27,611 nucleotides of DNA from Candidatus Yanofskybacteria bacterium RIFCSPHIGHO2_01_FULL_39_8b (GTDB taxonomy: Bacteria > Patescibacteriota > Minisyncoccia > 2-02-FULL-40-12 > GWA2-44-9): contig MGIZ01000020.1 of the NCBI GenBank assembly GCA_001794015.1, positions 9,876 to 37,486 on the forward strand, written 5' to 3'. The translations under genes were made by a program, and so were the position numbers. This document shows, piece after piece, positions 3,762 through 16,084 of the stretch. How positions within the stretch are numbered: position 1 is the first letter of the stretch; the number at the start of each line of letters is the position of its first letter. The notes under the pieces were generated by a model. That model was not told the DNA's origin, ran no database searches, and saw nothing but the letters and a program-made list of their open reading frames with translations.

Positions 3762-3779
3762 TCCCACATATAGTGCTGG

Positions 3780-3809
3780 TTGACGATCATCTTCAAATTG
3801 ATATAAAAT
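3780..3809 (+). promoter_or_regulatory. Putative sigma70 promoter of gmhA-gmhB
   Basis: TTGACG (3780-3785) followed by TATAAA (3802-3807, 16-nt spacer) or TAAAAT (3804-3809, 18-nt spacer). It lies inside the track's N-terminal extension, which favours the ATG at 3842 as the real start. Confidence 0.4.
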
Positions 3810-3841
3810 CCGCATATAGTCTTTTTAACCACGCTCTGCCT

Positions 3842-4423
3842 ATGAGTATCGTTAAATCAATGCTAGCTTCCGTTGAAACTAAAATTAAACTGTTATCAGA
3901 CAGAGATTTTATAATAGAAATGGAAAAAATCGGCAGTCGGATGATTACATGTCTAAAATTGAGTAAAAAGATCTTAATCGCCGGTAATGGCGGTTCAGCC
4001 GCCGATGCCCAGCATTTTGCCGCAGAACTTGCCGGACAATTCGTTCATAAACGAAAAGGTCTTCCGGTTATAGCCCTAACTACTAACCCGTCAATAATTA
4101 CTGCCATCGGAAATGATTTCGGTTATGAATATGTGTTTTCAAAACAAATAGAAGGTCTCGGCAATCAAGGAGATATATTTGTTGGAATTTCGACAAGCGG
4201 TAATTCTCTTAATTTAATTAATGCCATGGATATCGCTAAAAAACAGGGACTGGTAACAGTGGGCTTTTTGGGTAGGGGTGGCGGACACATGAAGAATTTC
4301 TGCGACTTAAAGCTTATTGTTCCTTCCGATAATACCCAGCATATTCAAGAAGCTCATATTATGATTATCCATGAATTGTGTTCTCTCATCGACAATGCCT
4401 TTAAAAATCATGCCCAAGAATAA
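3842..4423 (+). CDS. gmhA: D-sedoheptulose 7-phosphate isomerase
   Basis: SIS-domain motifs GNGGSAADAQHFAAEL, TAIGNDFGYEYVFSKQ, ISTSGNS, TQHIQEAHIMIIHELC. The start is placed at ATG 3842 (MSIVKS); the track starts at GTG 3773. Confidence 0.93.
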   Translation: MSIVKSMLASVETKIKLLSDRDFIIEMEKIGSRMITCLKLSKKILIAGNGGSAADAQHFAAELAGQFVHKRKGLPVIALTTNPSIITAIGNDFGYEYVFSKQIEGLGNQGDIFVGISTSGNSLNLINAMDIAKKQGLVTVGFLGRGGGHMKNFCDLKLIVPSDNTQHIQEAHIMIIHELCSLIDNAFKNHAQE

Positions 4424-4961
4424 ACCATCCTCCAAATTTATAATCCTAGATCGTGATGGAACAATTATCGAAGATAGGGGCTATATTCACAAAATAAAAG
4501 ATATGAAATTTTTACCGGGAGCAGTGAGAGGACTAAAAAAACTTCAAAATGCCGGATTTAGATTTATAATAATTACTAATCAGGCCGGCCTAGCTAGGGG
4601 CATATATAATCATGCCCAATTCAATATTTTTAATCAGGAGCTAATTAAGCGTCTTGGGACTAAAAATATAAAGATTGAAAAAACATATTACTGCCCCCAT
4701 CATCCCGAATTTACAAGATCGTGTCGATGCCGAAAACCCAAAAAAGGAATGGTTCTTCAAGCAGCCAAAGAATTTGGGTTTAATATTTCCAAATGTGTTT
4801 ATATCGGCGATAAAGATTCGGATATGGAATTGGGTAAAAACTGTAAAGGCATCACTGTTTTAATAGAAAATTCTCAATATCCAAACCGTATTCAGCCAGA
4901 TTATAAAGCCAAAAATCTTTATCATGCATTTAAGGTTTTGGCGAAAACCAGAGTAATCTGA
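4410..4961 (+). CDS. gmhB: D-glycero-D-manno-heptose 1,7-bisphosphate phosphatase (HAD-IIIA)
   Basis: LDRDGTI (DxD), ITNQAG, Zn motif YCPH...CRCRKP, IGDKDSD. The start is placed at ATG 4410, overlapping the end of gmhA by 14 nt. Confidence 0.88.
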   Translation: MPKNKPSSKFIILDRDGTIIEDRGYIHKIKDMKFLPGAVRGLKKLQNAGFRFIIITNQAGLARGIYNHAQFNIFNQELIKRLGTKNIKIEKTYYCPHHPEFTRSCRCRKPKKGMVLQAAKEFGFNISKCVYIGDKDSDMELGKNCKGITVLIENSQYPNRIQPDYKAKNLYHAFKVLAKTRVI

Positions 4962-5001
4962 ACCATAAGAATACTTGGTGTTAAAATTGTTGATAGACCT
5001 A

Positions 5002-5030
5002 TTTGACACTTTTTGACACTTTTTGATACT
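5002..5030 (+). repeat. Three-unit 10-bp tandem repeat (TTTGACACTT, TTTGACACTT, TTTGATACT)
   Basis: Units start at 5002, 5012 and 5022. The first two contain a perfect TTGACA. Confidence 0.85.
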
Positions 5031-5032
5031 AT
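5003..5032 (+). promoter_or_regulatory. Strong sigma70 promoter with extended -10 for the sulfation/amidination operon
   Basis: TTGACA (5003-5008), 18-nt spacer, TACTAT (5027-5032) preceded by TGn (5024-5026). Confidence 0.6.
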
Positions 5033-5112
5033 CAACTTAACTTGATATAAATCTTAACTCCCCCCTGGCGGAGAGTTTAGGGTTAAGAAGTTGCCAATAA
5101 ACTTTTTACCAG

Positions 5113-7827
5113 ATGAAAAACTGTAAAATAATCGTCACCGTCGGACCGGCTACACATAGTCTAGAATCTTTAACCAAGATGAAGGATTTAGACGTCGACT
5201 TCATAAGAGTCAACATGTCTCATTCTTCAATAGATCATCTGAAAGATTTCATATCCTTATCCAAACAGGCAGGCTTACAATTTATAATTGATACCCAAGG
5301 TTCGCAAATCAGAACCAGTAATCTTGCTAGATCATTTATTGAGCTTAAAGAAGGGCAATATATAAAAATTTTTAATAAGCCGAGGCAGGATAAGAGAAGC
5401 GTCCAACTTTCCCTCACGCCCACCGGCATACTAGAACAGTTAGACCCGGGCGATATTGTTCATGTTGATTTTAATAGTCTGATTCTTAGAGTTAGCGATA
5501 CATCCAGCCTCTCAAGAGGCTATATTCTGGCTCAAGCTATAAGTGACGGCAAGGCAGGCAGTAACAAAGCTGTTGTTATTGATCCGGTATTTAAAAAGAA
5601 TTTTAATTTGCCTCCATTTAGTCCTGTTGACTACAAAGCTATCCGGATTGGTCTTGAAGAAAAGATAAACCACATAGCCGTTTCGTTCGTCAGAAAACCG
5701 GAAGATATCGATCTGGCAAGAAAAATTACAAACAATTCCATGAAAATAATATCCAAAATCGAGTGTATCGATGCTATAAAAAATCTTGAACCGATAATTA
5801 AAAAAACCGACTATATCTTAATAGACCGGGGAGATTTAAGCAAAGAGATGCCCCTTGCAGCAATTCCGATGGCCCAAAAATTAATTTTTGAAAAAGCCAA
5901 GAAATATAAAAAGGGGGTCTTTGTTGCAACTAACCTGCTTGAAACAATGGTTAATAATAAGAAACCGACTCGAGCCGAAATGAATGATATTGCAAATACA
6001 ATCTTAGACGGAGCTGCGGGATTGGCTTTGGCCGCTGAAACGGCAATCGGCAAATACCCGATTGAATCAATTATCGCTCTAAAAAAAGTTGTTAACTACA
6101 CCCAGCAGCCCAAGAAAGATTTACTAATCAATAATCCGCAGATCGTTGCACCTCATGGGGGAAAATTGGTGAACCTAATCCCCGATCAATTACCAAACAT
6201 GGAACATATTTCATCATTAAAAAAAATCGGCCTTGATCCTGAACGCCAAATGGATGTAGAACTTATGGGTACTGGCGTTTATAGTCCTCTGGAAGGATTT
6301 ATGGCCAAAAAAGATTTGGATAGCGTTGCTAACCGAATGAAACTTGCCAATGGCACGATCTGGCCATTACCGATAATACTCGACGTTAGCAAAGAAACCG
6401 CTGATAATTTTAAAATTGGCGAAATAATCGCCCTAACTGATGAAAATGATTCGATCATGGCATTACTGCATCTTGCCCAAAAATATCCCTTTGAGAAAAA
6501 AACAGTAATTAAAAAAATATTCGGCACAAACAATATGAGCCACCCCGGCGTTAAGATAATGAGTGGGATGAATGACTATCTCCTTGGAGGCAAAATAGAA
6601 TTATTAAGAAAAAGGGGGTCAGACACAAGAGAATATGAATTAACGCCAAGCCAAGTCAGAAAATTAATTGAAGAAAAGGGATGGTTGAAAGTAATCGGTT
6701 TTCACACTAGAAATGTCATCCATCGCAGTCATGAATTTATTCAGCTAGAGGCATTAAAAAAAGAGTTTGGAGACGGCTTATTCATTCACCCCGTCATTGG
6801 CAAGAAAAAACCGGGAGACTTTAATGCAAAATATATCATCCAATCCTATGAAACGATGATTAAAAATTTCTATCCCAAAGACAAGGTGGTATTTTCTGTT
6901 TTTCCAAGTTACTCCCGCTATGCCGGACCAAGAGAAGCTCTGTTTACTGCAATCTGCCGAAAGAATTACGGCTGTAGCCATTTCATGGTCGGCCGAGATC
7001 ACGCGGGAGTGGGTAACTTTTATAAACCGACCGCCTCGCATGATATTTTTGATAAATTCCCCGACCTTGGGATAAGGCCGATCAAATTTAATCAAGTCTT
7101 TTATTCCCGAAAATTGAAGAGATATATTCATGAAGGGGATATTCCGAACCATGATGAAAAAGATAAATTTTATATTAGCGGCACCCAGGCAAGAAAAATG
7201 TTTTTAAACGGCAAAAGACCTCCGGATTGGTTTATGCGGCCGGAAATATCTAACTCAATCGCCGCCGCCATAAAGAGGGGCGAGGAAATTTTCGTTAAAG
7301 AAAAACTCCCGGGGAAAATAATCTGGTTTACCGGTTTAAGCGGTTCTGGAAAAAGTACAATTGCGAATAGACTCTCGGAAAAACTTACTGAATTAGGGAA
7401 AAAAGTTTATATTATTGATGGCGATAACATACGAAAAAATATCAGCAAGGATCTCGGATTTGGTCGCGAAGATATACAAGAAAATAATAGAAGAATAGCA
7501 GAATTAGCCAAACAGAAAATAAAAGAATTTGACTTTATTCTAATTCCGATAATATCGCCCTATAGAGAAGACCGCCAAATGGCTAAGTCAATAATCGGCG
7601 ATCAAAAATTTATTGAATTATATGTAAATGCCCCCTTCAACGTTTGCGAAAAAAGAGATGTTAAAGGCTTATATAAAAAATATAAAGATGGCCAATTGGC
7701 ATTACTAATAGGAGCAGCCCAGCAAAACCCCTACGAACCACCGCTAAAGCCGGATATTGAAATTAAAACGTATAAAAATTCAATTAATAAATCTACTAAT
7801 AAAATATTGAGATGGTTAATAAAATAA
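5113..7827 (+). CDS. pyk-sat-cysC: Triple fusion, 904 aa: pyruvate kinase (A+B domains, no C domain) + ATP sulfurylase (Sat type) + APS kinase (CysC)
   Basis: PK part (about aa 1-330): TVGPA, RVNMSH, DTQGSQIRT, KIE, DRGDL, VATNLLETM, PTRAE..D.AN...DG, ETAIGKYP. Sat part (from about 6145): APHGGKLVNL, YSPLEGFM, WPLPI.LDV, HPGV, FHTRNVIHRSH, RYAGPREA, GRDHAGVG, ISGT..R. CysC part (from about 7309): WFTGLSGSGKST, DGD.IR, ISPY...R, RDVKGLY. It is one uninterrupted ORF. Confidence 0.93.
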   Translation: MKNCKIIVTVGPATHSLESLTKMKDLDVDFIRVNMSHSSIDHLKDFISLSKQAGLQFIIDTQGSQIRTSNLARSFIELKEGQYIKIFNKPRQDKRSVQLSLTPTGILEQLDPGDIVHVDFNSLILRVSDTSSLSRGYILAQAISDGKAGSNKAVVIDPVFKKNFNLPPFSPVDYKAIRIGLEEKINHIAVSFVRKPEDIDLARKITNNSMKIISKIECIDAIKNLEPIIKKTDYILIDRGDLSKEMPLAAIPMAQKLIFEKAKKYKKGVFVATNLLETMVNNKKPTRAEMNDIANTILDGAAGLALAAETAIGKYPIESIIALKKVVNYTQQPKKDLLINNPQIVAPHGGKLVNLIPDQLPNMEHISSLKKIGLDPERQMDVELMGTGVYSPLEGFMAKKDLDSVANRMKLANGTIWPLPIILDVSKETADNFKIGEIIALTDENDSIMALLHLAQKYPFEKKTVIKKIFGTNNMSHPGVKIMSGMNDYLLGGKIELLRKRGSDTREYELTPSQVRKLIEEKGWLKVIGFHTRNVIHRSHEFIQLEALKKEFGDGLFIHPVIGKKKPGDFNAKYIIQSYETMIKNFYPKDKVVFSVFPSYSRYAGPREALFTAICRKNYGCSHFMVGRDHAGVGNFYKPTASHDIFDKFPDLGIRPIKFNQVFYSRKLKRYIHEGDIPNHDEKDKFYISGTQARKMFLNGKRPPDWFMRPEISNSIAAAIKRGEEIFVKEKLPGKIIWFTGLSGSGKSTIANRLSEKLTELGKKVYIIDGDNIRKNISKDLGFGREDIQENNRRIAELAKQKIKEFDFILIPIISPYREDRQMAKSIIGDQKFIELYVNAPFNVCEKRDVKGLYKKYKDGQLALLIGAAQQNPYEPPLKPDIEIKTYKNSINKSTNKILRWLIK

Positions 7828-8765
7828 AAATTGGCACACGTGTTCCTCTGGTTAAAAACCTCTTGATTGTCGAGGGTATTACGCGCGCCGGTAAATTTTT
7901 ATTGGCCAACCTCATTCACGGATTTAAAGACATTGAGCCCATTCAATATTATGGCCTGCCTGAAAATCTTCCTTTTCTTGAAAAATTTGGATTTATAAAC
8001 AGAAGAGCGGCCAAAGAGATATTACAATGCCAGATTGATACACATTGCTATGAAATGCTAATCGGAAGAAATTTTAATCACCGTAAATTCGATAAGTCAT
8101 CAATATATAACAACCCTAGATATAAAGAATTTTTAACCCGTAGCAATGAGCCTGATAGAGAAAAATTGCTTGCAGCGTTTTATAAAAATAATAGTTATAG
8201 CTTTTTTATAATGCATGAGCTAATGCCTCATATTAAAATTTATCTTGATACCTTTTCCGATATAAAGATAGTCAGCATCCAGAGAAGCCCTATTGAACTG
8301 GTCCATTCTTGGTATAAGTGCGGACTAGGAAAAAGATGGGGCAATGACCCAACGTGGTTTCAGATAGCATTAGGAGATAATCAGGGCCCCATTCCCTGGT
8401 ATGCTCATGATTGGACGCACGATTATAGGACACTACCGGAGATAGATAGAGTTATACACTCGATACAAACTCTAGATTATTTATATAAAAAATCATTTAG
8501 TAGGCTATCTTCCCGAGATAAAAACAAAATACTTTTTGTTAGATATGAAAAAATACTTTCATCTCCCCTAAAAGTTATAGATTCAATCAAAAAATTCTTA
8601 AATAAAAATACCCTGCCGGAAATTGGAAAAATCTTAAAGAAAGAAAAGTTGCCTGTAAAAAATTATGGGGCCCAGATATTAAATAAAATTAAAATAATAA
8701 AAAAAATGGCATCTGAAAAATATTTCAAGATTTTAATGGACCTAGAAAATGAATACAACCTTTAA
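7812..8765 (+). CDS. Putative PAPS-dependent sulfotransferase
   Basis: 5'-PSB-like loop IVEGITRAGKFLL, 3'-PB-like motif IQRSPIELVHSW, and C-terminal FVRYEKILSSP..VI..I.KFL. It overlaps the PAPS-synthetase gene by 16 nt. Confidence 0.7.
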   Translation: MVNKIKIGTRVPLVKNLLIVEGITRAGKFLLANLIHGFKDIEPIQYYGLPENLPFLEKFGFINRRAAKEILQCQIDTHCYEMLIGRNFNHRKFDKSSIYNNPRYKEFLTRSNEPDREKLLAAFYKNNSYSFFIMHELMPHIKIYLDTFSDIKIVSIQRSPIELVHSWYKCGLGKRWGNDPTWFQIALGDNQGPIPWYAHDWTHDYRTLPEIDRVIHSIQTLDYLYKKSFSRLSSRDKNKILFVRYEKILSSPLKVIDSIKKFLNKNTLPEIGKILKKEKLPVKNYGAQILNKIKIIKKMASEKYFKILMDLENEYNL

Positions 8766-9516
8766 AAAAATAAGGATAATCCCTAGACTGGATGTAAAAG
8801 GCTCCAACGTAATAAAGGGCGTCCACCTTGAATGTCTTAAAATTGTTGGTAACCCCCAAGATATGGCGACCAGATATTATAATGAAGGGGCCGATGAAAT
8901 AATTTGTATGGACATTGTGGCCAGCCTATATGGACGTAAAAATTTACTTAACATTATTTCTGAAGCTGCTAAAAATATTTTTATTCCTTTAACGGCTGGC
9001 GGCGGTATCAAATCTATTAAAGACATCAAGAATATTCTCCGGGCCGGAGCCGATAAAGTGGCCATAAATACTTATGCCGTTAAAAATCCGGACTTTATTC
9101 CTAAAGCCGCTAAAGCATTTGGCAGCCAATGTATAGTAGGATCAATTGAGGCTAAACTAATCGAACCCGGCAAATGGGAGGCATTTACTGATAATGGCCG
9201 TGAAAAAACCGGCCTAGACGTGATAAAATGGGCTCAAAGGTTAGAAAAATTAGGCGCAGGAGAATTATTAATAACGTCCGTAGACAAAGAAGGCACCACC
9301 AAAGGTTACGACTTAGAACTTATGAATAAAATTACTCAAGCAGTAAAAATACCGATTATTGCTTGTGGCGGGGCCGGCAGTCCTAAAGATTTTTACAATA
9401 CCGCCACCCTGGGAATAGATGCCATTGCCGCATCCCACGTATTCCATTACCAAAAGCACAATGTTAAAGAAATAAAAAAATATTTAAAAAATAAAAAAAT
9501 CAATGTCCGCACCTAA
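8749..9516 (+). CDS. hisF: HisF-like cyclase subunit of the glycan-locus type (WbuZ-like; ammonia channel of an amidotransferase)
   Basis: RIIPRLDVKG..VIKG, GADE...DI.ASL, PLTAGGGI, GADKVAINT, GAGELLITSVDKEGT..GYD, PIIACGGAG. The position equivalent to the second HisF catalytic Asp reads SIE. Confidence 0.88.
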   Translation: MNTTFKKIRIIPRLDVKGSNVIKGVHLECLKIVGNPQDMATRYYNEGADEIICMDIVASLYGRKNLLNIISEAAKNIFIPLTAGGGIKSIKDIKNILRAGADKVAINTYAVKNPDFIPKAAKAFGSQCIVGSIEAKLIEPGKWEAFTDNGREKTGLDVIKWAQRLEKLGAGELLITSVDKEGTTKGYDLELMNKITQAVKIPIIACGGAGSPKDFYNTATLGIDAIAASHVFHYQKHNVKEIKKYLKNKKINVRT

Positions 9517-10156
9517 AATTATAATAATTGACTACGGATTCGGAAATTTATTCAGTCTAACTAATGCTTTTAGATTTCTTGGAATCGAGCCAATCGTTAC
9601 CAGCAGTATCTCAAATATCAAAACAGCTGATGCGCTTGTTTTGCCGGGAGTCGGTGCTTTCGACGATGGGATGATGGGACTAAAAAAGAAAAATCTGGTT
9701 AAGCCAATTCTAGACTTTGCCGATTCAGAAAAAAATCTGCTAGGCATATGCTTGGGAATGCAGTTTCTTTTTGACTATAGCGAAGAGTTTGGAAAGCATG
9801 AGGGTTTAAGCTTAATTTCTGGAGCTGTAAAAAGAATACCCGATCCGAAACAAAATAAAAACTACAAAATTCCCAATATTGGCTGGTCAGAATTGAATAA
9901 ATCAAAGCATTTGAAAAGTTGGAAAAACACTGTATTATCATCAAGTAAAGAGGGGGTAGAAATGTATTTTGTCCATTCTTATGTCGCTTTACCAGAAAAC
10001 AAGAAAAACATCTTGGCATCAATAAATTATGGAAGCAATATTATAACAGCGGTGGTACAAAAAAATAACATAACCGGCCTTCAATTCCACCCTGAAAAAA
10101 GCGGTCCCGAGGGCTTAAAAATATTAAAACAATGGGTAATTCAGATTTCCACATAA
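9503..10156 (+). CDS. hisH: HisH-like class I glutamine amidotransferase (WbuY-like glutaminase)
   Basis: IIDYG.GNL.S, LPGVGAF, catalytic GICLGMQ, YFVHSY, and QFHPEKSG (Cys-His-Glu triad intact). Confidence 0.9.
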   Translation: MSAPKIIIIDYGFGNLFSLTNAFRFLGIEPIVTSSISNIKTADALVLPGVGAFDDGMMGLKKKNLVKPILDFADSEKNLLGICLGMQFLFDYSEEFGKHEGLSLISGAVKRIPDPKQNKNYKIPNIGWSELNKSKHLKSWKNTVLSSSKEGVEMYFVHSYVALPENKKNILASINYGSNIITAVVQKNNITGLQFHPEKSGPEGLKILKQWVIQIST

Positions 10157-10824
10157 AAAAAGATAAAAATTTTAAACCGAAAGAATTATTTAAAGATATG
10201 GCTGCAATTATACAAAAACGTTTTAAAAATACGGGGGATTTTAGCATTCTCGACATCGGCTGCGCTTCCGGCGAATTACCATTTTATTTAAAAAATAGGT
10301 TTAAAACTGACGATGTGTATGGTTTTGATATTTCTCCTAAATTAATCAAAAACGCCAAAGAACGTTTCGGCGGCTCTAAAATTAATTTTACAGTCGCCAA
10401 CGCGAAAAATTTTAAATTCAACAGGAAATTTGATGTAATAACCGCCGCATCCATCCTCAGCTATTTTGATAATCCTTACGAAATTTTAAATAACATTTTC
10501 AAACATCTAAACAAAAAGGGCCTGATAATAATAACCGGCATTTTCAATGACTGGAATTTAGATGTCAAACTTAAATACAAAATGGATAAAGATAAAAAAT
10601 GGGGAGACAAATCTGTTATAAACCAGTTTTCAACAAAAAGAATAGGCGATTATCTGACAAAAAAGGGATACAAGTATAAATTTTCAGAGCAAATAATGCC
10701 GTTTAAAATCGTCCCCCACAAAGATCACCCGATTAGATCATGGACGATAAACTTAAATGGGAAAAGATTTATGATGAGCGGGCTGCAGTTAGCTTATAAT
10801 ATTAAAATTCTTCAAATATGGTAA
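10132..10824 (+). CDS. Class I SAM-dependent methyltransferase
   Basis: SAM motif ILDIGCASGE, YGFDIS...I..A, FDVITA..ILSY. It overlaps both neighbouring genes. Confidence 0.85.
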   Translation: MGNSDFHIKKDKNFKPKELFKDMAAIIQKRFKNTGDFSILDIGCASGELPFYLKNRFKTDDVYGFDISPKLIKNAKERFGGSKINFTVANAKNFKFNRKFDVITAASILSYFDNPYEILNNIFKHLNKKGLIIITGIFNDWNLDVKLKYKMDKDKKWGDKSVINQFSTKRIGDYLTKKGYKYKFSEQIMPFKIVPHKDHPIRSWTINLNGKRFMMSGLQLAYNIKILQIW

Positions 10825-12002
10825 AGACTCTAGACAAACAACTTGCACAGCTCCCAAAAGAAGTTATTTTCTGTAAAAAATGTGTTGTCTCAAACCAGCG
10901 ACCAAGAACAGAATTTGATGCCGAAGGCATATGCAATGCCTGCCGTTATGTTGAAGAAAAAAACACAAAAATTGATTGGGCCAAGAGAGAAAAAGAGTTA
11001 ATTAAACTTCTGAACAAGCATCGCTCCCAAGATGGCAGTTATGACGTTGTTGTCCCATCTAGCGGAGGAAAAGACAGCGGCATCGTGGCTCACCAACTGA
11101 AAACCAAATACGGTATGCACCCTTTAACTGTAACTTGGGCGCCGTTTTTATACACCGACATTGGGTGGAAAAATTATTTAAATTTTAAAGATTCTGGTTT
11201 TGATAATGTTTTATTTTACCCCAATGGTAAAATATACAGAAAGCTGGCCAGAATTGCTTTTGAATTAAAGGGTGATGCCTGGGAACCGTTCGGCTGGGGA
11301 CAAAAATGTTACCCTTTTCATATTGCCGTCAGATTTAAAATTCCTTTAATTTTCTACGGAGAAAACGGCGAAGTAGAATATGGCGGATCTATGCAAAATA
11401 AGAATAAGTCCCATGAATCACCCAGAGATTGGGAAAAGTTATATTACAAAGGATCTGGAGTAGATGCGCTTGTTAAAGAGGGCTTAAAGATGGGAATCCT
11501 GACGAAAGAGGACCTTAAAGAAAGTAATTTCTCCATATTTAAATCTCCTCCATTTGCCCAAATAGAAAAACTTGGGACAGAGATGCATTGGTGGTCCTAT
11601 TATCACAAATGGATTCCCCAGGAAAATTATTATTATTCGGCAGAGCACACCGGATTTGAAGCTAACCCCGAAGGAAGATCTGAAGGCACATATTCAAAGT
11701 ATGCCAGCCTTGATGATAAAACCGACGGGTTCCATTGGTATCTGGGCTATATCAAATTCGGCCTCGGAAGAGCTTCCCGTGACGCTCAAATGGAAATCCG
11801 GAGCGGACATATTACACGTGAAGAAGCTATTTCTTTAGTAAAAAGATATGATGGAGAATTTCCAAAACAGTATTTTAAAGAATTCCTTCAATATCTTGGC
11901 ATAACTGAAAAGCATTTCTGGGAAGTAATCGAAAGGTACAGAAGTCCCCACCTCTGGAAAAAAGTTAATGGAAGGTGGCAATTAAAATTTAAAGTAAAAT
12001 GA
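10818..12002 (+). CDS. N-acetyl sugar amidotransferase (WbuX/PseA/PtmG family; acetamidino synthase)
   Basis: N-terminal CKKC...RP...FD..G.CNAC, PP-loop YDVVVPSSGGKDS, HPLTVTW, YGENGEVEYG, TYSKYASLDDK, KFG.GRA..DA..EIR.G.ITREEA. Confidence 0.9.
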   Translation: MVKTLDKQLAQLPKEVIFCKKCVVSNQRPRTEFDAEGICNACRYVEEKNTKIDWAKREKELIKLLNKHRSQDGSYDVVVPSSGGKDSGIVAHQLKTKYGMHPLTVTWAPFLYTDIGWKNYLNFKDSGFDNVLFYPNGKIYRKLARIAFELKGDAWEPFGWGQKCYPFHIAVRFKIPLIFYGENGEVEYGGSMQNKNKSHESPRDWEKLYYKGSGVDALVKEGLKMGILTKEDLKESNFSIFKSPPFAQIEKLGTEMHWWSYYHKWIPQENYYYSAEHTGFEANPEGRSEGTYSKYASLDDKTDGFHWYLGYIKFGLGRASRDAQMEIRSGHITREEAISLVKRYDGEFPKQYFKEFLQYLGITEKHFWEVIERYRSPHLWKKVNGRWQLKFKVK

Positions 12003-12727
12003 AAAAACAAAAACCGATAATCCTCGCTTACATACCCGCTCGCGGAGGATCAAAAAGAATCCCTGGGAAAAATTTCAAAAAATTCGTAAATAAACCTCTG
12101 ATCGCCCATGCTGTTGAACAAGCGCTTTCATGGCCACATACCGACCGGCTGATCGTTGATACGGATTCACCCAAAATAGCAAAAATAGCAAAAAAATATG
12201 GAGCCGAAGTCCCCTTTTTGAGACCGGCCGAATTAGCCCAAGACAAATCCATGGCAATTGATACAATCTTATACACCCTGAATCGCCTCGAGAAAGAACA
12301 AAATTACAAACCTACCCACCTGTTAATGCTGCAAGCCACATCTCCCCTACGTGAGCTTAAAGACATAGATGCCTGTTGGAAAATGATGAAAGAAACAGAT
12401 GCCACTACGGTTTTAACCGTTTGCTCAACTCATCCCCGCCTTTACCACATGAACGATAAAAATGACATTATTCTAGTAAATGGCCATGAAGGAATGTCAA
12501 CAAATATGCAGGCTTGGTCTCCGGCATATCTGCTAAACGGCTGTTTTGTTTATATAATAGATATTGCAACTTTGAAGAAAGAAAGGCGAGTGATAACTAC
12601 CAAAACTAAAGCTGTTGTCTGTCCAAAATGGCGATCGATTGACTTAGATACTCCCGAAGAATGGGTGATGGCAGAAATTTTATATAGAAATAAAAAGAAA
12701 TTAGAAAAAGAAATTAAATCAATTTAA
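11999..12727 (+). CDS. neuA: CMP-nonulosonic acid synthetase (acylneuraminate cytidylyltransferase)
   Basis: IPARGGSKRIPGKN, KPLIA, VDTDS, AEVPFLRP.ELA.D, LQATSP, SIDLDT.EEW..AE. Confidence 0.93.
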   Translation: MKKQKPIILAYIPARGGSKRIPGKNFKKFVNKPLIAHAVEQALSWPHTDRLIVDTDSPKIAKIAKKYGAEVPFLRPAELAQDKSMAIDTILYTLNRLEKEQNYKPTHLLMLQATSPLRELKDIDACWKMMKETDATTVLTVCSTHPRLYHMNDKNDIILVNGHEGMSTNMQAWSPAYLLNGCFVYIIDIATLKKERRVITTKTKAVVCPKWRSIDLDTPEEWVMAEILYRNKKKLEKEIKSI

Positions 12728-12740
12728 TTTAAACAAATTA

Positions 12741-12775
12741 TTGACATCAGATGTCTTTTAGACATCAGATGTCAA
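12741..12775. repeat. Double palindrome: two copies of GACATC-A-GATGTC nested in a 35-bp inverted repeat
   Basis: Copies lie at 12743-12755 and 12761-12773. The whole element TTGACATCAGATGTCT-TTT-AGACATCAGATGTCAA pairs at 15 of 16 positions. Confidence 0.9.
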
Positions 12776-12782
12776 AGAATTA

Positions 12783-13826
12783 ATGCTAAAGTCTAAACTT
12801 AAATTTTTAGTTATCGGATTAGGTTCAATGGGACGAAGAAGAATCAGAAATCTTCTGGCCAATAAAATAAAAAGAGGGAACATCTTTGGCTTTGATATTT
12901 GGAAAGAGCGAGCCGAAAATGTCGGGAAAGAATATGGTATTAAAGTAACCGAAAGTTTTAAAAGGGCAATTGCAGATTTCAACCCTGATGTTTTTATAGT
13001 CTCCACTCCACCCAATGCCCACGATAAATATTTCCTTTGGGCTTTGAAGAATAACAAGCATTTCTTTGTTGAACATCCCACGACAGACAAAGGCTATAAT
13101 CAGCTTCTAAATTCTAAATTAAAAATTCTAAATTCTAAATTCGGTATTGTGGGTGTCCCTTCAAACAGCTGGAGGTTTAACCCGTCCATCAAGAAAATAA
13201 AAGAGCTTATTGAACAAAACTCTATCGGCAAAGTACTGGCTTTTCAATACCATATGGGCCAATATCTGCCCGATTGGCATCCTTGGGAAGATTCCAAAAA
13301 GGTTTATTTTTCCAAAAAAGAAACTGGTGCTTGCCGAGAAATGTTTGCTTTTGAGCTGGGCTGGCTAACTTTTGCATTAGGGTTAAGCGAAATAAAAAAT
13401 ATCTCCGGCGTAACAAAAAAACTATCCGATCTGGATATGGATGCAGATGACTTTTATTCTGCAATTTTAAATTTCGAGAATGGAATCAGTGCGACAACGA
13501 TCATAGATCTTCTGTCCAAAAAACCGATGCGAACTTTAAGAGTAGTCGGTACAAAAGGAGTTCTTGAGTGGGAGTGGCTTGATTACACGATAAAAATCCA
13601 CAAATCAAGAACTGATTCTCAATTGATCCAGCTAAACAAGGGCCGAAGCGAGAAACATTATGTTTCTACCGAGGATATGTATGAAGAAGAAATCGGTCTC
13701 TTTATAAATGCCCTAGAGGGCAAGAAACCTTTTCCTTTTACTTTCAAAGAAAATCGACATTTCTTGAAGGCTTTATTTGCCCTTGAAAAAAGCAGTAAAA
13801 CCGGAAAAGTAATACCCATAAAATGA
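12783..13826 (+). CDS. Gfo/Idh/MocA family oxidoreductase (PtmF-like)
   Basis: Rossmann motif LVIGLGSMGRRR, FIVSTPP..H, FFVEHP, GQYLPDWHPWED, HELDW-like FELGWL. Confidence 0.85.
   Translation: MLKSKLKFLVIGLGSMGRRRIRNLLANKIKRGNIFGFDIWKERAENVGKEYGIKVTESFKRAIADFNPDVFIVSTPPNAHDKYFLWALKNNKHFFVEHPTTDKGYNQLLNSKLKILNSKFGIVGVPSNSWRFNPSIKKIKELIEQNSIGKVLAFQYHMGQYLPDWHPWEDSKKVYFSKKETGACREMFAFELGWLTFALGLSEIKNISGVTKKLSDLDMDADDFYSAILNFENGISATTIIDLLSKKPMRTLRVVGTKGVLEWEWLDYTIKIHKSRTDSQLIQLNKGRSEKHYVSTEDMYEEEIGLFINALEGKKPFPFTFKENRHFLKALFALEKSSKTGKVIPIK
13105..13142 (+). repeat. In-frame heptamer tandem repeat (TTCTAAA)2-TTAAAAA-(TTCTAAA)2-TTC inside the oxidoreductase
   Basis: Units start at 13105, 13112, 13119, 13126, 13133 and 13140, encoding LLNSKLKILNSKF. 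Confidence 0.85.
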
Positions 13827-14878
13827 ATGAGGTAAAAATAGGTCACAAAATAATATCTAACAAATCGGCGGTATTCATTATTGCCGAAGCCGGCGTTAAT
13901 CATAACGGCAGTTTAAAATTGGCAAAAAAACTTATAGATGTTGCCGCTGATTCCGGTGCTGATGCTGTCAAATTTCAAACTTTCAATCCTGATACATTAA
14001 TAACTAAAGCCACGGCTAAAGCAAACTATCAGGCTCGTAATGAGGGCAAGGCCAAGGAAAGCCAATACGAAATGCTTAAGAGACTAATGTTGCCCAGAGA
14101 ATGGCACCAGGAATTAAAACAATATGCTGAACAGAAAAAATTAATATTTTTATCCACCCCATTTTCTTTAGACGATGCCGTTTTCCTCCATAAACTTGGA
14201 GTAAAAGCCATAAAAGTCGGTTCAACCGATACTAATAACCTACCCTACCTTACTGAAATCGCTAAGTGGAAACTGCCTATAATTTTATCGACCGGGATGT
14301 CTGATTTGCCAGAAATTAAAGAAGCGGTTAGGACAATACAAAAAACCGGCCATCAGAAACTGGTTATATTGCACTGCACAACCAACTATCCAACGCCCTA
14401 TCAAGAGGCCAATCTAAAAGCAATTACTGCCCTTAGAACAGAATTTAAAAATATACCCATAGGCTTTTCAGAACACACTATCGGAATAGAAATCGCCATC
14501 GCTTCAGTACCTCTTGGAATAAGAATTTTAGAAAAGCATTTTACACTTGATGGAAATTTGCCCGGCCCTGATCATCTAGCATCTTTAGAACCGGCAGAAT
14601 TAAGACAGCTTGTATCTTCCATTCGTCATGTTGAAGCCGCCATGGGAACCGGTAAAAAAATGCCTTTTGCCAGCGAAAATAAAATTGCTGAAATCGCCAG
14701 AAAAAGCCTTGTGGCTGCTCACGACATAGCCGCCGGTGAAAAATTAACCGCCGTAAATATAGCCGTAAAAAGACCTGGTACTGGAATAAAACCAAAATTT
14801 CTTAATAAAATATTGGGCAAAAAAGCAAAAAGAAAAATAAAGAAAGATCAGCTATTAAGCTGGGATTTGATAACTTGA
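13823..14878 (+). CDS. neuB: Nonulosonic acid synthase (NeuB/LegI type) with C-terminal SAF/antifreeze-like domain
   Basis: IIAEAGVNHNG, GADAVKFQTF, KA.YQ....ESQYEMLK.L, STPFS, KVGS.D.NN, LSTGM, LHCTTNYP, GFSEHT, EKHFTLD, GPDH.ASLEP, RKS, KRPGTGI. Confidence 0.95.
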   Translation: MNEVKIGHKIISNKSAVFIIAEAGVNHNGSLKLAKKLIDVAADSGADAVKFQTFNPDTLITKATAKANYQARNEGKAKESQYEMLKRLMLPREWHQELKQYAEQKKLIFLSTPFSLDDAVFLHKLGVKAIKVGSTDTNNLPYLTEIAKWKLPIILSTGMSDLPEIKEAVRTIQKTGHQKLVILHCTTNYPTPYQEANLKAITALRTEFKNIPIGFSEHTIGIEIAIASVPLGIRILEKHFTLDGNLPGPDHLASLEPAELRQLVSSIRHVEAAMGTGKKMPFASENKIAEIARKSLVAAHDIAAGEKLTAVNIAVKRPGTGIKPKFLNKILGKKAKRKIKKDQLLSWDLIT

Positions 14879-14903
14879 CACTTAAGCCAAAATAATCTAA
14901 ATT
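14875..14903 (+). promoter_or_regulatory. Putative internal sigma70 promoter of neuC
   Basis: TTGACA (14875-14880, overlapping the neuB TGA stop), 17-nt spacer, TAAATT (14898-14903). Confidence 0.45.
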
Positions 14904-14938
14904 CTTTTCAGCTTTTTACAATATAAAGTCATATTGCT

Positions 14939-16084
14939 ATGAAAAAAAGAAAAATCGCTTATATATCTGGCACAAGGGCGGATTTCGGCATAATGAAATC
15001 TATTCTTAAATCAGTAGATGTCAGCCCCAAACTTGAATTGCAAATGTATGTCACTGGGATTCATTTAACGCCCGGCTTTGGTTCGACAGTAAATGAAGTT
15101 AAGAAAATTTTCCCGGGCACCAAATCCATAGAGGCTAAATTTAACAATGATGGCTTCTCTGGCGTTGCAAGATTCACTGGAAACTTTCTAACAAAGTTAA
15201 CCGAGACTTTCATTAAAAATAGACCTGATTTTGTTTTGGTCCTCGGTGATCGATCAGAAGAATTATGCGTAGCTATGGCTTGCTTATATCTTGGAATTCC
15301 AACCGGACATTTTAGGGGTGGGGAAAGAACATCTGCGTTTGATGAAATTGCCCGTCATGCGATAACGAAAATGTGTAGTCTGCATTTTGCCTCTACTCAA
15401 GAATCAGCAAACAGAATTGAAAAAATGGGAGAAGATAGGTGGAGAATTCATGTCGTCGGAGAAGCATCGTTGGATATCATTCTCAATCAGAAATTACCGA
15501 CAAGAAAAGAACTCTTCGTCAAACTAGGGTTCCCTTCACCGTCTCAATTCATCCTCCTTATTCAACATTCTGTAAGCTACGAACTTGATAGAACTAAAAA
15601 ACAAATCAAAGAGACATTGGCAGCCCTAAAATATCTTGAATTACCAATAATCGTTATTTATCCTAATGCCGATGCCGGCGGAAGAAAAATAGTTAAAGAA
15701 ATAGAAAGAGAGAGGGGGAATCCGCTTTTTCATATTTATCAAAACCTGCCCTATGAATATTTTCTTGCCCTTGAAAGGGAAGCCGATGTTTGGGTTGGCA
15801 ATTCCAGCGGAGCAATGGTTGAATCATCATCGTTCGGCACACCAGTAGTTAATATTGGCACCCGCCAGAAGAACAGACAAAGAGGCGAGAATGTAATTGA
15901 CGTTGATTATAAAAAAAATGAGATTATATCAACTGTCAAAAAATCATTGAACCCTGCCTATATTGCCCGCCTAAAAACCCTGAAAAACCCATGGGGAGAT
16001 GGTAAGACCGGCCCAAGAGTAGCTAAAATTTTAGAAAATCTAACCATTAATTCACAATTGCTAAATAAGCAAATATCTTATTAA
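14939..16084 (+). CDS. neuC: Hydrolysing UDP/GDP-sugar 2-epimerase (NeuC/LegG type)
   Basis: SGTRADFG, VTG.HL...FG.T, LVLGDR.E, GGE.T...DE..RHAITK, YPNADAG, VGNSSG, EssSFG.PVVNIG.RQ.NR, PWGDG. Confidence 0.93.
   Translation: MKKRKIAYISGTRADFGIMKSILKSVDVSPKLELQMYVTGIHLTPGFGSTVNEVKKIFPGTKSIEAKFNNDGFSGVARFTGNFLTKLTETFIKNRPDFVLVLGDRSEELCVAMACLYLGIPTGHFRGGERTSAFDEIARHAITKMCSLHFASTQESANRIEKMGEDRWRIHVVGEASLDIILNQKLPTRKELFVKLGFPSPSQFILLIQHSVSYELDRTKKQIKETLAALKYLELPIIVIYPNADAGGRKIVKEIERERGNPLFHIYQNLPYEYFLALEREADVWVGNSSGAMVESSSFGTPVVNIGTRQKNRQRGENVIDVDYKKNEIISTVKKSLNPAYIARLKTLKNPWGDGKTGPRVAKILENLTINSQLLNKQISY

What the first reader, a model, noticed from the sequence alone, without database searches (positions are those of the whole stretch)
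5113..7827. Natural pyruvate kinase-ATP sulfurylase-APS kinase fusion: a candidate self-fuelling PAPS synthetase
Seen: one 904-aa ORF joins a PK catalytic barrel plus B domain (RxNxSH, DTxG, KIE, RGD, AT and ETA residues retained; the regulatory C domain absent) to a complete Sat and a complete CysC. Established: Sat-CysC fusions are well known. PAPS synthesis costs 2 ATP and APS kinase releases ADP. In vitro PAPS-production cascades add pyruvate kinase plus PEP to recycle that ADP. Inference: this protein may hard-wire ATP recycling onto PAPS synthesis, using PEP to pull the unfavourable Sat step in a fermentative, energy-poor cell. NeuB in the same locus also uses PEP. The PK position that is Glu in K+-dependent and Lys in K+-independent enzymes is Gln here (DTQGSQIR). 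I know of no characterised enzyme with this architecture, but I cannot search to confirm novelty.
Basis: partly seen in the sequence, partly recalled or inferred. Interest (0 to 1): 0.92.

Follow-up and report, generated by a model that had tools for sequence, protein, structure and literature searches.

The report
Pyruvate-kinase-fused PAPS synthase for glycan sulfation
One intact gene of a groundwater candidate-phyla-radiation bacterium joins a pyruvate kinase core to the two enzymes that make the sulfate donor PAPS; it belongs to a large family on which I found no published study, and it probably uses phosphoenolpyruvate to turn ADP back into ATP while the cell sulfates a sialic-acid-like surface sugar.

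Summary
ORF 5113-7827 (904 aa) is pyruvate kinase A+B domains (no C domain), a linker, PUA, ATP sulfurylase and APS kinase. Public contigs bridge both junctions, and all three catalytic sets are conserved. It is not unique: the 120 best 90%-identity clusters share PK+Sat, and this scan has noted the family 79 times in 63 genomes. I found no paper on it.

New here:
- The PK belongs to one clade (138 of 167 sequences in the tree, support 0.97) with Gln at the K+-switch position 117 in 222/222 members.
- That clade occurs as PK-Sat, PK-Sat-CysC, PK-CysC and free-standing PK. All 7 free-standing cases sampled lie beside a sulfotransferase.
- Fused Sats carry HTRN instead of QTRN.
- About a quarter of PK-Sat representatives have a dead Sat domain.
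- Ten of ten genomes of this class with the module lack a canonical PK and enolase. Some also lack APS kinase or Sat.

Best reading (0.6): PEP-driven ADP-to-ATP recycling relieves the known ADP/APS dead-end inhibition of PAPS synthesis. The PEP source, and the module's role where Sat or CysC is missing, remain unexplained. This is a new variant of a known kind.

The parts
5113..7827 (+). Whole 904-aa ORF: PK(A+B)-linker-PUA-Sat-CysC.
   Evidence: Public contigs span it. The closest named relative of the protein is 70% identical, from Ca. Yanofskybacteria, in a syntenic locus.
5113..6102 (+). Pyruvate kinase A (TIM barrel) plus B (lid) domains, aa 1-330, with no C domain. It belongs to the Gln-117 sulfation-associated clade.
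   Evidence: PF00224 covers 1-328/328 at 220 bits. The closest solved structure is E. coli PykF, 1pky/4yng. Catalytic residues are invariant in 222 clade members. The clade has support 0.97. The model matches PKM at about 3 A.
5305..5307 (+). Codon of Gln65, which corresponds to rabbit-PK Glu117, the K+ switch. It lies in the A/B hinge motif D-T-Q-G-S-Q-I-R.
   Evidence: Gln in 222/222 clade members; Lys/Arg/Glu in 13 canonical CPR PKs. For the role of 113/114/117 see PMC4374775 and PMC8835810.
6103..6147 (+). Variable, low-confidence linker between PK and PUA (aa 331-345).
   Evidence: pLDDT is 64 for aa 331-340. The family consensus has no conserved residues here.
6148..6609 (+). PUA-like N-terminal domain of ATP sulfurylase (aa 346-499).
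   Evidence: PF14306, 154 bits.
6631..7263 (+). ATP sulfurylase catalytic domain (aa 507-717). HxxH and GRDH are intact. The sulfate-contacting Gln of QxRN is His531 (codon 6703-6705).
   Evidence: PF01747, 261 bits. Matches 2gks and 8a8d. FHTRN occurs in 118/120 fused homologues, against FQTRN in 11/11 unfused CPR Sats and in the five best-matching solved Sats whose alignments were printed. The Gln binds the sulfate of APS (PMC3779200).
7312..7767 (+). APS kinase domain (aa 734-885) with P-loop, DGD, LGF, ISPY and KGLYK motifs.
   Evidence: PF01583, 174 bits; TIGR00455, 191.6 bits, above its 138.7 cut-off. The motifs are invariant in 77 tri-fusions.
7812..8765 (+). Sulfotransferase (317 aa). 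Its start overlaps the fusion's stop by 16 nt. It is the likely consumer of the PAPS.
   Evidence: PF00685, E 1e-6. Orthologues lie directly downstream of the fusion in G492, G501, G517 and the Yanofskybacteria locus.
8749..12002 (+). WbuZ/HisF-like, HisH, methyltransferase and WbuX. This is the acetamidino-forming amidotransferase set, in one overlapping gene chain with the sulfotransferase.
   Evidence: TIGR03573 WbuX 354 bits, above its cut-off; TIGR03572 WbuZ 279 bits.
11999..16084 (+). CMP-nonulosonate cytidylyltransferase, GFO/IDH/MocA oxidoreductase, NeuB (13823-14878, a PEP user) and NeuC (14939-16084). Together they synthesise and activate the nonulosonic acid.
   Evidence: NeuB TIGR03569 445 bits and NeuC TIGR03568 379 bits, both above their cut-offs.

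Best explanation
The protein is a PAPS synthase with its own ATP-recharging unit.

Shown by sequence:
- It carries three intact catalytic modules on one chain.
- It is translationally coupled to a sulfotransferase.
- It sits in a locus that builds an acetamidino/formyl nonulosonic (legionaminic-type) sugar.

Inferred steps:
1. Sat makes APS and PPi from ATP and sulfate.
2. CysC uses a second ATP to make PAPS and ADP.
3. The N-terminal pyruvate kinase core (A+B domains) transfers phosphate from PEP to that ADP.
4. The net reaction becomes ATP + PEP + sulfate -> PAPS + PPi + pyruvate.
5. The PK core lacks the allosteric C domain, so it is presumably always on.

Keeping ADP low matters for two reasons. 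[quoted passage not shown] The variable, flexible linker argues for co-localisation and fixed 1:1:1 stoichiometry rather than a substrate tunnel. The PAPS is then used by the adjacent sulfotransferase to sulfate the surface glycan.
For: 1. Architecture and integrity.
2. PK chemistry is preserved. The residues that bind PEP, Mg, K+ and the nucleotide phosphates are invariant in 222 relatives. dN is 0.21 against saturated dS for the PK part versus the Yanofskybacteria orthologue, comparable with Sat (0.15) and CysC (0.35).
3. Rosetta-stone and neighbourhood evidence shows the same PK clade joined to the PAPS pathway in many independent arrangements:
   - PK-Sat-CysC and PK-Sat;
   - PK-CysC fusions without Sat (P0151, P0161, P0347);
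   - PK -> CysC -> sulfotransferase;
   - CysC -> PK -> x -> sulfotransferase;
   - PK-pseudoSat -> CysC;
   - PK-Sat -> CysC -> sulfotransferase in G501;
   - a separate recruitment of a Lys-117 barrel-only PK behind Sulfatase-CysC and Sat in G250.
4. In G098 (100% complete) a canonical 475-aa PK coexists with the fused one, so the fused copy is a dedicated paralogue.
5. Biochemical logic is documented. The APS kinase dead-end E-ADP-APS complex and APS-like binding of ADP in Sat are described in PMC3734648. With human PAPSS1, PAPS was 'practically missing' and ADP piled up without the PK/PEP module, and PAPS rose strongly with it (PMC9885120).
Against: - No activity was measured.
- The PK module persists where its supposed clients are missing. 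Genus g382 (G467, a closed genome, and G517) has PK-Sat plus a sulfotransferase but no APS kinase; the weak hits there are adenylate kinases. Genus g357 (G436, G534) has a free-standing PK plus a sulfotransferase and no Sat, yet that PK is under purifying selection.
- Five of seven free-standing PKs show no Sat or CysC within 7-10 kb.
- Twenty of 77 full-length PK-Sat representatives have a catalytically dead Sat domain.
- The PEP supply is unknown. Ten of ten genomes of this class with the module lack enolase. G000, G467 and G436 also lack PpsA/PPDK and ATP-type PEPCK. They do keep PEP-dependent MurA.
- Clade-specific changes next to both active sites have unknown effect and could mean altered specificity. 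In PK these are K114E/Q, E117Q and mostly S361A; in Sat it is Q->H in QxRN.
- ADP and ATP diffuse freely, so the kinetic gain from fusion itself is unproven.
Confidence: 0.6

Rival explanations
1. The Gln-117 PK-like module catalyses a modified reaction within sulfation rather than plain ADP recycling. One possibility is PEP-dependent phosphorylation of APS or another nucleotide, which would replace CysC where it is absent. Another is PK activity gated by APS/PAPS/sulfate bound to the Sat(-like) domain, which would then stand in for the lost allosteric C domain.
For: - The module tracks sulfotransferases even without CysC or Sat.
- There is a clade-invariant Gln117 plus Glu/Gln114 in the A/B hinge, and mostly Ala at S361.
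- The Sat motif shows a co-varying Q->H change only in fused Sats.
- Dead Sat domains are kept behind intact PKs. This recalls the inactive Sat-like domain of the T. denitrificans APS kinase (3cr8).
Against: - Every residue needed for the ordinary PEP/ADP reaction is invariant.
- The tri-fusion keeps a fully intact CysC, so a second APS-phosphorylating site would be redundant.
- No precedent is known to me for PK phosphorylating a ribose 3'-OH.
- The CysC-less G517 sulfotransferase has Glu where its orthologues have the Ser of the 3'-phosphate-binding motif. This fits a switch to APS as donor rather than a hidden kinase (one sequence only).
Confidence: 0.15
2. The fused domain is simply the cell's only, housekeeping pyruvate kinase, making ATP and pyruvate from PEP. 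On this view it was fused to Sat-CysC by chance or for co-expression and has no specific role in PAPS synthesis.
For: It is the only PF00224 hit in G000 and in all nine other genomes of the class that carry the module.
Against: - The same ten genomes have no enolase, so there is no glycolytic PEP stream to serve.
- G098 has a canonical PK and enolase as well as the fused copy.
- The clade is monophyletic and, wherever sampled, sits in sulfation cassettes. This includes organisms far outside the CPR, such as a Magnetomoraceae genome and a sulfur oxidiser.
- About two thirds of the class live without any PK.
Confidence: 0.08
3. The PK domain is a non-catalytic scaffold or oligomerisation module for the PAPS synthase.
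For: - PK A domains form dimer interfaces (general knowledge).
- The C domain, which normally builds the tetramer, is missing.
Against: - Catalytic and ligand residues are invariant across 222 sequences.
- The free-standing copy is under purifying selection.
- Where a domain has decayed in this family, it is Sat and not PK.
Confidence: 0.04
4. The fusion is an assembly chimera or a frameshift artefact.
For: None found.
Against: - Contigs from four public runs bridge both junctions, with no joints or indels.
- The 120 best 90%-identity clusters, from independent assemblies, share the architecture.
- One example lies in a closed 0.84-Mb genome.
Confidence: 0

Closest known systems
Bifunctional ATP sulfurylase-APS kinase of Aquifex aeolicus (PDB 2gks; NCBIfam NF004040).
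   Same: The PUA-Sat-CysC order and fold are the same. Residues 363-903 align to 2gks at E 4e-114 (Foldseek E 1e-51). Both make PAPS on one chain.
   Different: - It has no PK module.
- Our protein scores 467 bits against the 669-bit equivalog cut-off.
- Our protein has His instead of the sulfate-binding Gln in QxRN.
Canonical pyruvate kinase (EC 2.7.1.40; E. coli PykF 1pky/4yng, rabbit muscle PK).
   Same: The A+B domains cover the full Pfam profile. All catalytic, Mg, K+-ligand and nucleotide-phosphate residues are present.
   Different: - It lacks the C (effector/tetramer) domain.
- It scores 264 bits against the 306-bit TIGR01064 cut-off.
- Gln occupies position 117, where characterised families have Glu (K+-dependent) or Lys (K+-independent) (PMC4374775).
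- It forms a separate clade.
Engineered PAPS cascades that add pyruvate kinase plus PEP to PAPS synthase (for example PMC9885120).
   Same: [quoted passage not shown]
   Different: Those cascades use separate commercial enzymes mixed in vitro. Here the combination is natural, on one polypeptide, and has been conserved in evolution.
APS kinase-ATP sulfurylase-pyrophosphatase fusions of stramenopiles and haptophytes. This comes from my own knowledge and from earlier scan note e1-1167482, which cites PMC2275785. I did not re-read it here.
   Same: The design logic is the same: an enzyme that removes a by-product of sulfate activation is fused to the pathway.
   Different: The helper removes PPi rather than ADP. 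The lineage is eukaryotic and the helper fold is unrelated.
Thiobacillus denitrificans APS kinase with an inactive N-terminal Sat-like domain (PDB 3cr8).
   Same: It is a precedent for the degenerate Sat domains seen in about a quarter of PK-Sat representatives, one of which (P0241) is followed by a stand-alone APS kinase.
   Different: It has no PK. The window's own Sat domain is intact.

Membership tests
Pyruvate kinase (PF00224 / TIGR01064, EC 2.7.1.40) | The barrel (A+B) domain matches the family profile over its full length. | tested here: met
   PF00224, 220.3 bits against a cut-off of 30, covering profile positions 1-328 of 328.
Pyruvate kinase (PF00224 / TIGR01064, EC 2.7.1.40) | Catalytic Lys269 and Thr327; Mg ligands Glu271 and Asp295; Arg72, Arg119 and Lys206; K+ ligands Asn74, Ser76, Asp112 and Thr113. 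| tested here: met
   K215, T273, E217, D241, R32, R67, K152, N34, S36, D60 and T61 are present. They are invariant or nearly so in 222 clade members.
Pyruvate kinase (PF00224 / TIGR01064, EC 2.7.1.40) | A C-terminal alpha/beta domain (PK_C) and full-length equivalog score. | tested here: not met
   No PF02887 in the protein or anywhere in the genome. TIGR01064 scores 263.6 bits against a 306.4 cut-off, matching profile positions 2-338 of 476 only.
Pyruvate kinase (PF00224 / TIGR01064, EC 2.7.1.40) | Glu (K+-dependent) or Lys (K+-independent) at position 117, with the matching residues at 113 and 114. | tested here: not met
   The residue is Gln65. The clade signature is [TS]113-[EQ]114-Q117. 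The literature pattern is in PMC4374775 and PMC8835810.
Pyruvate kinase (PF00224 / TIGR01064, EC 2.7.1.40) | PEP + ADP -> pyruvate + ATP activity. | not testable with these tools
   Needs an enzyme assay.
Bifunctional Sat/APS kinase, i.e. PAPS synthase (NF004040; 2gks type) | PUA plus Sat catalytic domain, with HxxH and GRD loops. | tested here: met
   PF14306 and PF01747 match. H537, H540 and G627-R628-D629-H630 are conserved. TIGR00339 scores 360.7 against a 322.95 cut-off. The fold matches 8a8d at TM 0.94.
Bifunctional Sat/APS kinase, i.e. PAPS synthase (NF004040; 2gks type) | The Gln of the QxRN loop that hydrogen-bonds the sulfate of APS. | tested here: not met
   His531 (HTRN) occupies this position. 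His is found in 118/120 fused homologues. Gln is found in 11/11 unfused CPR Sats and in the five solved Sats whose alignments were printed.
Bifunctional Sat/APS kinase, i.e. PAPS synthase (NF004040; 2gks type) | An APS kinase domain with P-loop and DGD/LGF/ISPY/KGLYK motifs. | tested here: met
   PF01583, 173.8 bits. TIGR00455 scores 191.6 against a 138.7 cut-off. The motifs are invariant.
Bifunctional Sat/APS kinase, i.e. PAPS synthase (NF004040; 2gks type) | The equivalog score for the whole bifunctional enzyme. | tested here: not met
   NF004040 scores 466.9 bits against a 669 cut-off.
Gln-117 sulfation-associated pyruvate kinase clade (defined here) | C-domain-less PK with D-[TS]-[EQ]-G-x-Q-x-R, branching inside the clade. 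| tested here: met
   P0001 has D-T-Q-G-S-Q-I-R. It lies inside the 138-member clade, which has support 0.972 and no non-Gln members.
Gln-117 sulfation-associated pyruvate kinase clade (defined here) | Lies in a cassette with a sulfotransferase and/or Sat/CysC. | tested here: met
   The sulfotransferase overlaps the stop codon. The same holds in 7 of 7 free-standing cases and in most of the fused cases sampled.

The most novel reading that the evidence does not exclude
The Gln-117 PK is more than a generic ATP recycler. It would be a dedicated 'sulfation kinase' module in which the Sat or Sat-like domain has replaced the allosteric C domain. PEP use would then be gated by sulfate, APS or PAPS. 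Alternatively, the module would supply phosphate from PEP directly to the sulfonucleotide in lineages that have no APS kinase. The co-varying active-site changes fit this reading: PK 114/117/361, and Sat Q->H. So do the retained dead Sat domains. So does the persistence of the module next to sulfotransferases in genomes with no Sat, CysC, enolase or other PK.
Probability: 0.15. Interest if true: 0.8.

Novelty: new variant of a known kind. Interest (0 to 1): 0.62.

Why it matters
PAPS is the usual sulfate donor, and its synthesis is costly and self-inhibited.

If the reading is right, nature has repeatedly built the same fix that process chemists add by hand (pyruvate kinase plus PEP). Ready-made single-chain catalysts for enzymatic sulfation would then exist in hundreds of natural variants.

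For microbiology, it points to sulfated nonulosonic-acid glycans on the surface of ultra-small CPR bacteria and DPANN archaea.

It also exposes a metabolic puzzle. These cells spend PEP on MurA, NeuB and this kinase, yet they show no recognisable way of making PEP.

For enzymology, the clade offers a third state of the pyruvate kinase K+ switch (Gln117 with Glu114) and a His variant of the sulfate-binding loop of ATP sulfurylase. I found neither among the characterised enzymes I looked at.

Tried and rejected
- **Locus handles** from the look-up of encoding contigs could not be used to search their genomes. Whole-genome statements therefore rest on 12 genomes with handles.
- **Assembly chimera** was rejected.
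- **'Only PK of the cell, hence housekeeping'** was considered after and downgraded. Enolase is missing in all ten such genomes, and G098 has both kinds of PK.
- **Weak APS_kinase hits in G436 and G467** were checked and are adenylate kinases. The odd CTP_transf_like/APS-kinase-like protein of G534 has no homologue in G436, G467 or G517.
- **PK running backwards to make PEP** for MurA/NeuB was considered and rejected. The grounds are thermodynamic (general knowledge: about +31 kJ/mol), and relatives without any PK also keep MurA.
- **dN/dS** could not be given as a ratio for most pairs because dS is saturated. Only dN and the saturation are reported.
- **G060's 349-aa barrel-only PK** lies beside ClpB, is only 28% identical, and is not part of the family.
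- **The AlphaFold output** gives no inter-domain error map, so I could not judge channelling geometry.
- **The absence of enolase and canonical PK in 10/10 genomes** is not statistically firm. The ten genomes fall in six families, the base rate is about one third, and relatives are not independent.
Full report
**1. The observation**

Window 5113-7827 (+) is one uninterrupted 904-aa frame. Pfam finds four domains:
- a full-length pyruvate kinase barrel domain at aa 1-320 (profile 1-328 of 328, 220 bits);
- PUA_2 at 346-499;
- ATP-sulfurylase at 507-717;
- APS_kinase at 734-885.

There is no PK_C domain in the protein or anywhere in the genome. NCBIfam agrees on the parts, but the whole-enzyme equivalogs fall below their cut-offs. 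TIGR01064 pyruvate kinase scores 264 against 306, and NF004040 Sat/APS kinase scores 467 against 669.

The closest solved structures are E. coli PykF for aa 1-327 and the Aquifex Sat-APS kinase 2gks for the rest. An AlphaFold2 model built on 77 family members has mean pLDDT 90.7 and pTM 0.73. Its only weak stretches are the PK-to-PUA linker (aa 331-340, pLDDT 64) and the kinase lid. Foldseek matches the parts to Sat (8a8d, TM 0.94), Sat-CysC (2gks) and PKM (about 3 A). Among the 50 matches listed, no PDB chain covers all three modules.

The junctions are real. Nine groundwater and soil metagenome runs hold the stretch. One contig spans 4900-8900, another spans 5000-7690, and others bridge each junction separately. 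There are no joints or indels, and a single G>C difference at 6987. Two of the four runs laid down may be the window's own source sample.

**2. It is a family, not a singleton**

All 120 best 90%-identity clusters found with the full protein carry PK+PUA+Sat. About 80 are tri-fusions of 875-965 aa. These come from CPR lineages such as Yanofskybacteria (70% identical), Paceibacterota, Doudnabacteria and Sungbacteria, and from some Woesearchaeota. A further 39 are PK-Sat proteins of 734-785 aa, including Woesearchaeota and Nanoarchaeota.

An exhaustive search with the PK domain alone gave a different balance. Among the 150 best 50%-identity representatives there are 82 PK-Sat, only 3 tri-fusions, 2 PK-CysC and 63 PK-only proteins. 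Ordinary 470-aa kinases appear only from about 180 bits downward. The tri-fusion of the window is therefore a minor, mostly CPR, branch of a large PK-Sat family.

This scan has noted the family before on other DNA: 79 notes in 63 genomes. Four full-text searches found no paper that describes it.

**3. The kinase is a distinct clade with its own signature**

I aligned 240 PK domains and mapped them to rabbit-muscle numbering through the PykF alignment. All of the following are invariant or nearly so in 222 family members:
- the residues that bind PEP and the transferred phosphate (R72, K269, T327, G294/D295);
- the Mg ligands (E271, D295);
- the nucleotide-phosphate residues (H77, R119, K206);
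- the monovalent-cation ligands (N74, S76, D112, T/S113).

Position 117 decides K+ dependence (Glu) or independence (Lys) in characterised kinases (PMC4374775, PMC8835810). In this family it is Gln in 222 of 222. Position 114 is Glu, or Gln as in the window. Position 361 is mostly Ala. Canonical kinases from the same phylum have the K+-independent pattern Leu113/Gln114/Lys117.

In a maximum-likelihood tree of 167 PK domains, the 138 Gln-117 sequences form one clade with support 0.97 and no intruders. The clade contains every architecture. Pfam scores tell the same story: 190-250 bits for this clade against 300-420 bits for canonical kinases.

**4. What the module travels with**

Contexts of fused members are glycan loci with a sulfotransferase next door. 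A PK-Sat archaeon has a stand-alone APS kinase two genes downstream. G501 has PK-Sat, then CysC, then a sulfotransferase.

Using the PK domain as query uncovered further forms:
- PK-CysC fusions without Sat, in a locus with two sulfotransferases and NeuB/NeuC;
- PK followed by CysC and a sulfotransferase;
- CysC, PK, an unknown gene and a sulfotransferase in a Magnetomoraceae genome;
- a sulfotransferase followed by PK with no CysC or Sat nearby.

All 7 free-standing Gln-117 kinases I sampled lie beside a sulfotransferase, and two of the seven also lie beside a TauE-family anion transporter. A TauE gene also sits next to the PK in G534, the congener of G436. In G250 a barrel-only kinase of the Lys-117 type lies behind a Sulfatase-CysC fusion and a Sat. 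This is a separate recruitment of a PK to the same pathway.

**5. Whole-genome checks**

The window's genome is 708 kb and 78% complete. Its only PK is the fused one. It has GAPDH and PGK, but no enolase, no PpsA/PPDK and no ATP-type PEPCK.

In a sample of 80 further species of its class, about one third have a PK and about one third have enolase. The same-family and same-order relatives have neither.

A 400-genome scan of the class found ten genomes with a Gln-117 kinase. Family searches on those ten gave the following:

| Genomes | Architecture |
|---|---|
| 5 | tri-fusion |
| 1 | PK-Sat with adjacent CysC |
| 2, one genus (one genome closed) | PK-Sat plus sulfotransferase, no APS kinase |
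| 2, one genus | free-standing PK plus sulfotransferase, no Sat |

None of the ten has a canonical PK, and none has enolase. MurA, which needs PEP, is present in all five genomes tested. PEP must therefore reach these cells by a route I cannot see.

Outside the class, G098 (100% complete) has a canonical PK and enolase in addition to its PK-Sat.

dS is saturated in every comparison while dN stays at 0.15-0.41. All parts, including the free-standing PK of the Sat-less genus, are under purifying selection.

**6. Changes in the partner domain**

The Sat loop QxRN holds the sulfate of APS through its Gln (PMC3779200). In fused Sats the motif is FHTRN in 118 of 120 close homologues, and also in the fused copy of G098. 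It is FQTRN in 11 of 11 unfused CPR Sats, including G098's second Sat and G250's Sat, and in the five solved Sats whose alignments were printed.

Among 86 PK-Sat representatives at 50% clustering:
- 53 keep all six core Sat residues;
- 4 keep four or five;
- 20 have lost most of them, although their PK residues are intact;
- 9 are truncated.

One such PK-pseudoSat is followed by a stand-alone APS kinase, and another by a sulfotransferase. The window's Sat is of the intact type.

**7. Mechanism**

The best-supported reading is a PAPS synthase with built-in ATP regeneration:
- Sat: ATP + sulfate -> APS + PPi;
- CysC: APS + ATP -> PAPS + ADP;
- PK: ADP + PEP -> ATP + pyruvate.

The value of removing ADP is documented. 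[quoted passage not shown] With human PAPSS1 almost no PAPS formed unless PK and PEP were added (PMC9885120). The repeated, independent joining of this PK clade to CysC and to Sat is what one expects of such a helper.

The steps are inferred, not shown. The flexible, variable linker suggests tethering rather than a tunnel. I put this reading at 0.6.

Four things count against a simple version:
- the lineages without CysC or without Sat;
- the dead Sat domains;
- the unknown PEP source;
- the clade-specific residues beside both active sites.

A single-sequence hint fits a switch to APS as donor where CysC is absent. The G517 sulfotransferase has Glu in place of the Ser of the 3'-phosphate-binding motif. 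That would keep the recycling idea alive through adenylate kinase, which those genomes possess.

**8. Rivals**

- A modified reaction or a regulated kinase (0.15) is not excluded, and it is the most novel reading.
- 'Just the cell's only PK' (0.08) is weakened by the missing enolase and by G098.
- A pure scaffold (0.04) is contradicted by residue conservation.
- A chimera is refuted.

**9. Context in the window**

The sulfotransferase starts at 7812, inside the fusion's last codons. It heads an overlapping chain:
- WbuZ/HisF-like, HisH, a methyltransferase and WbuX (acetamidino formation);
- a CMP-nonulosonate cytidylyltransferase and an oxidoreductase;
- NeuB and NeuC;
- a formyltransferase and PseC/LegC- and PseB-like enzymes.

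The locus is syntenic with a Yanofskybacteria genome. The likely product is a sulfated, amidinated or formylated legionaminic-type nonulosonic acid on a surface glycan. The sulfate acceptor itself is inferred.

**10. Verdict**

The protein is a new variant of a known kind: a PAPS synthase with an added, specialised pyruvate kinase. It is widespread, and I found no published study of it. It is directly testable with a simple enzyme assay.

Noticed in passing
L043 (G467), L063 (G517), L044 (G436), L062 (G534): Two genera of the window's class keep the Gln-117 PK and a sulfotransferase without a full PAPS pathway. Genus g382 has PK-Sat but no APS kinase anywhere; one of its genomes is closed. Genus g357 has PK alone and no Sat. 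The genes are under purifying selection.
   Followed up: partly
L062:8922-9680 (-) and L062:8135-8878 (-), genome G534: A 252-aa protein joins a CTP_transf_like (HxGH) nucleotidyltransferase segment to a shortened APS-kinase-like P-loop domain. It is followed by a TauE-family transporter, the free-standing PK and a sulfotransferase. This may be a minimal alternative sulfate-activation set. No homologue was found in G436, G467 or G517.
   Followed up: partly
Representatives P0241, P0243, P0245, P0246, P0268, P0282, P0299 and others: About a quarter of PK-Sat representatives have lost the Sat QxRN/HxxH/GRD residues while their PK residues stay intact. These are PK-pseudoSat proteins. One is followed by a stand-alone APS kinase and another by a sulfotransferase.
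   Followed up: partly
window 6703-6705 (His531); L021 versus L008 in G098: The sulfate-binding Gln of the Sat QxRN loop is His in PK-fused Sats and Gln in unfused Sats. This holds even within one genome that has both kinds.
   Followed up: partly
G000, G241, G443, G467, G436 (whole genomes): Several genomes of this CPR class that were checked (G000, G241, G467, G436) carry PEP-dependent MurA, and here also NeuB. None has enolase, PpsA/PPDK or ATP-type PEPCK, and most lack a PK. The source of PEP is unexplained; uptake from a host is one possibility.
   Followed up: partly
L063:6671-7663 (-), genome G517: This is the sulfotransferase of the genus that lacks APS kinase. It has Glu where five orthologues have the Ser of the R-x-P-x-x-L-V-x-S-W motif, which is the likely 3'-phosphate contact. 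That hints at APS rather than PAPS as donor. The evidence is a single sequence.
   Followed up: no
L045:5952-8105 (G250); L022:8748-10004; L046:7310-9115 (G098): Sulfatase-fold (alkaline-phosphatase superfamily) proteins recur next to PK-Sat. In G250 one is fused to an APS kinase (717 aa). Their role in a sulfating cassette is unclear.
   Followed up: no
G270:C17:729-2261 and G350:C14:25313-26967: In a genus of the same class, enolase is followed directly by a short PK whose Pfam match skips profile positions 78-170, which is the B lid domain. A congener (G489) instead has the tri-fusion and no enolase.
   Followed up: no
window 432-2558 (+): A 708-aa B12-binding radical SAM protein lies upstream of the fusion. 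It is conserved in the same position in the Yanofskybacteria locus (717 aa, L025:5207-7360).
   Followed up: no
window 3773-4961 (+): An overlapping SIS-domain (GmhA-like) and HAD phosphatase (GmhB-like) pair lies just upstream of the fusion. This suggests a phosphosugar isomerase/phosphatase step in the same glycan pathway.
   Followed up: no
window 21028-22682 (+): An MptE-like protein scores below the Pfam cut-off (25.9 against 34.6 bits). It is followed by an FkbM-type methyltransferase at the end of the nonulosonate gene row. The MptE-like protein may be a Maf-like glycan transferase.
   Followed up: no
window 6987: All four public runs read C where the window has G, within the Sat domain.
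   Followed up: no
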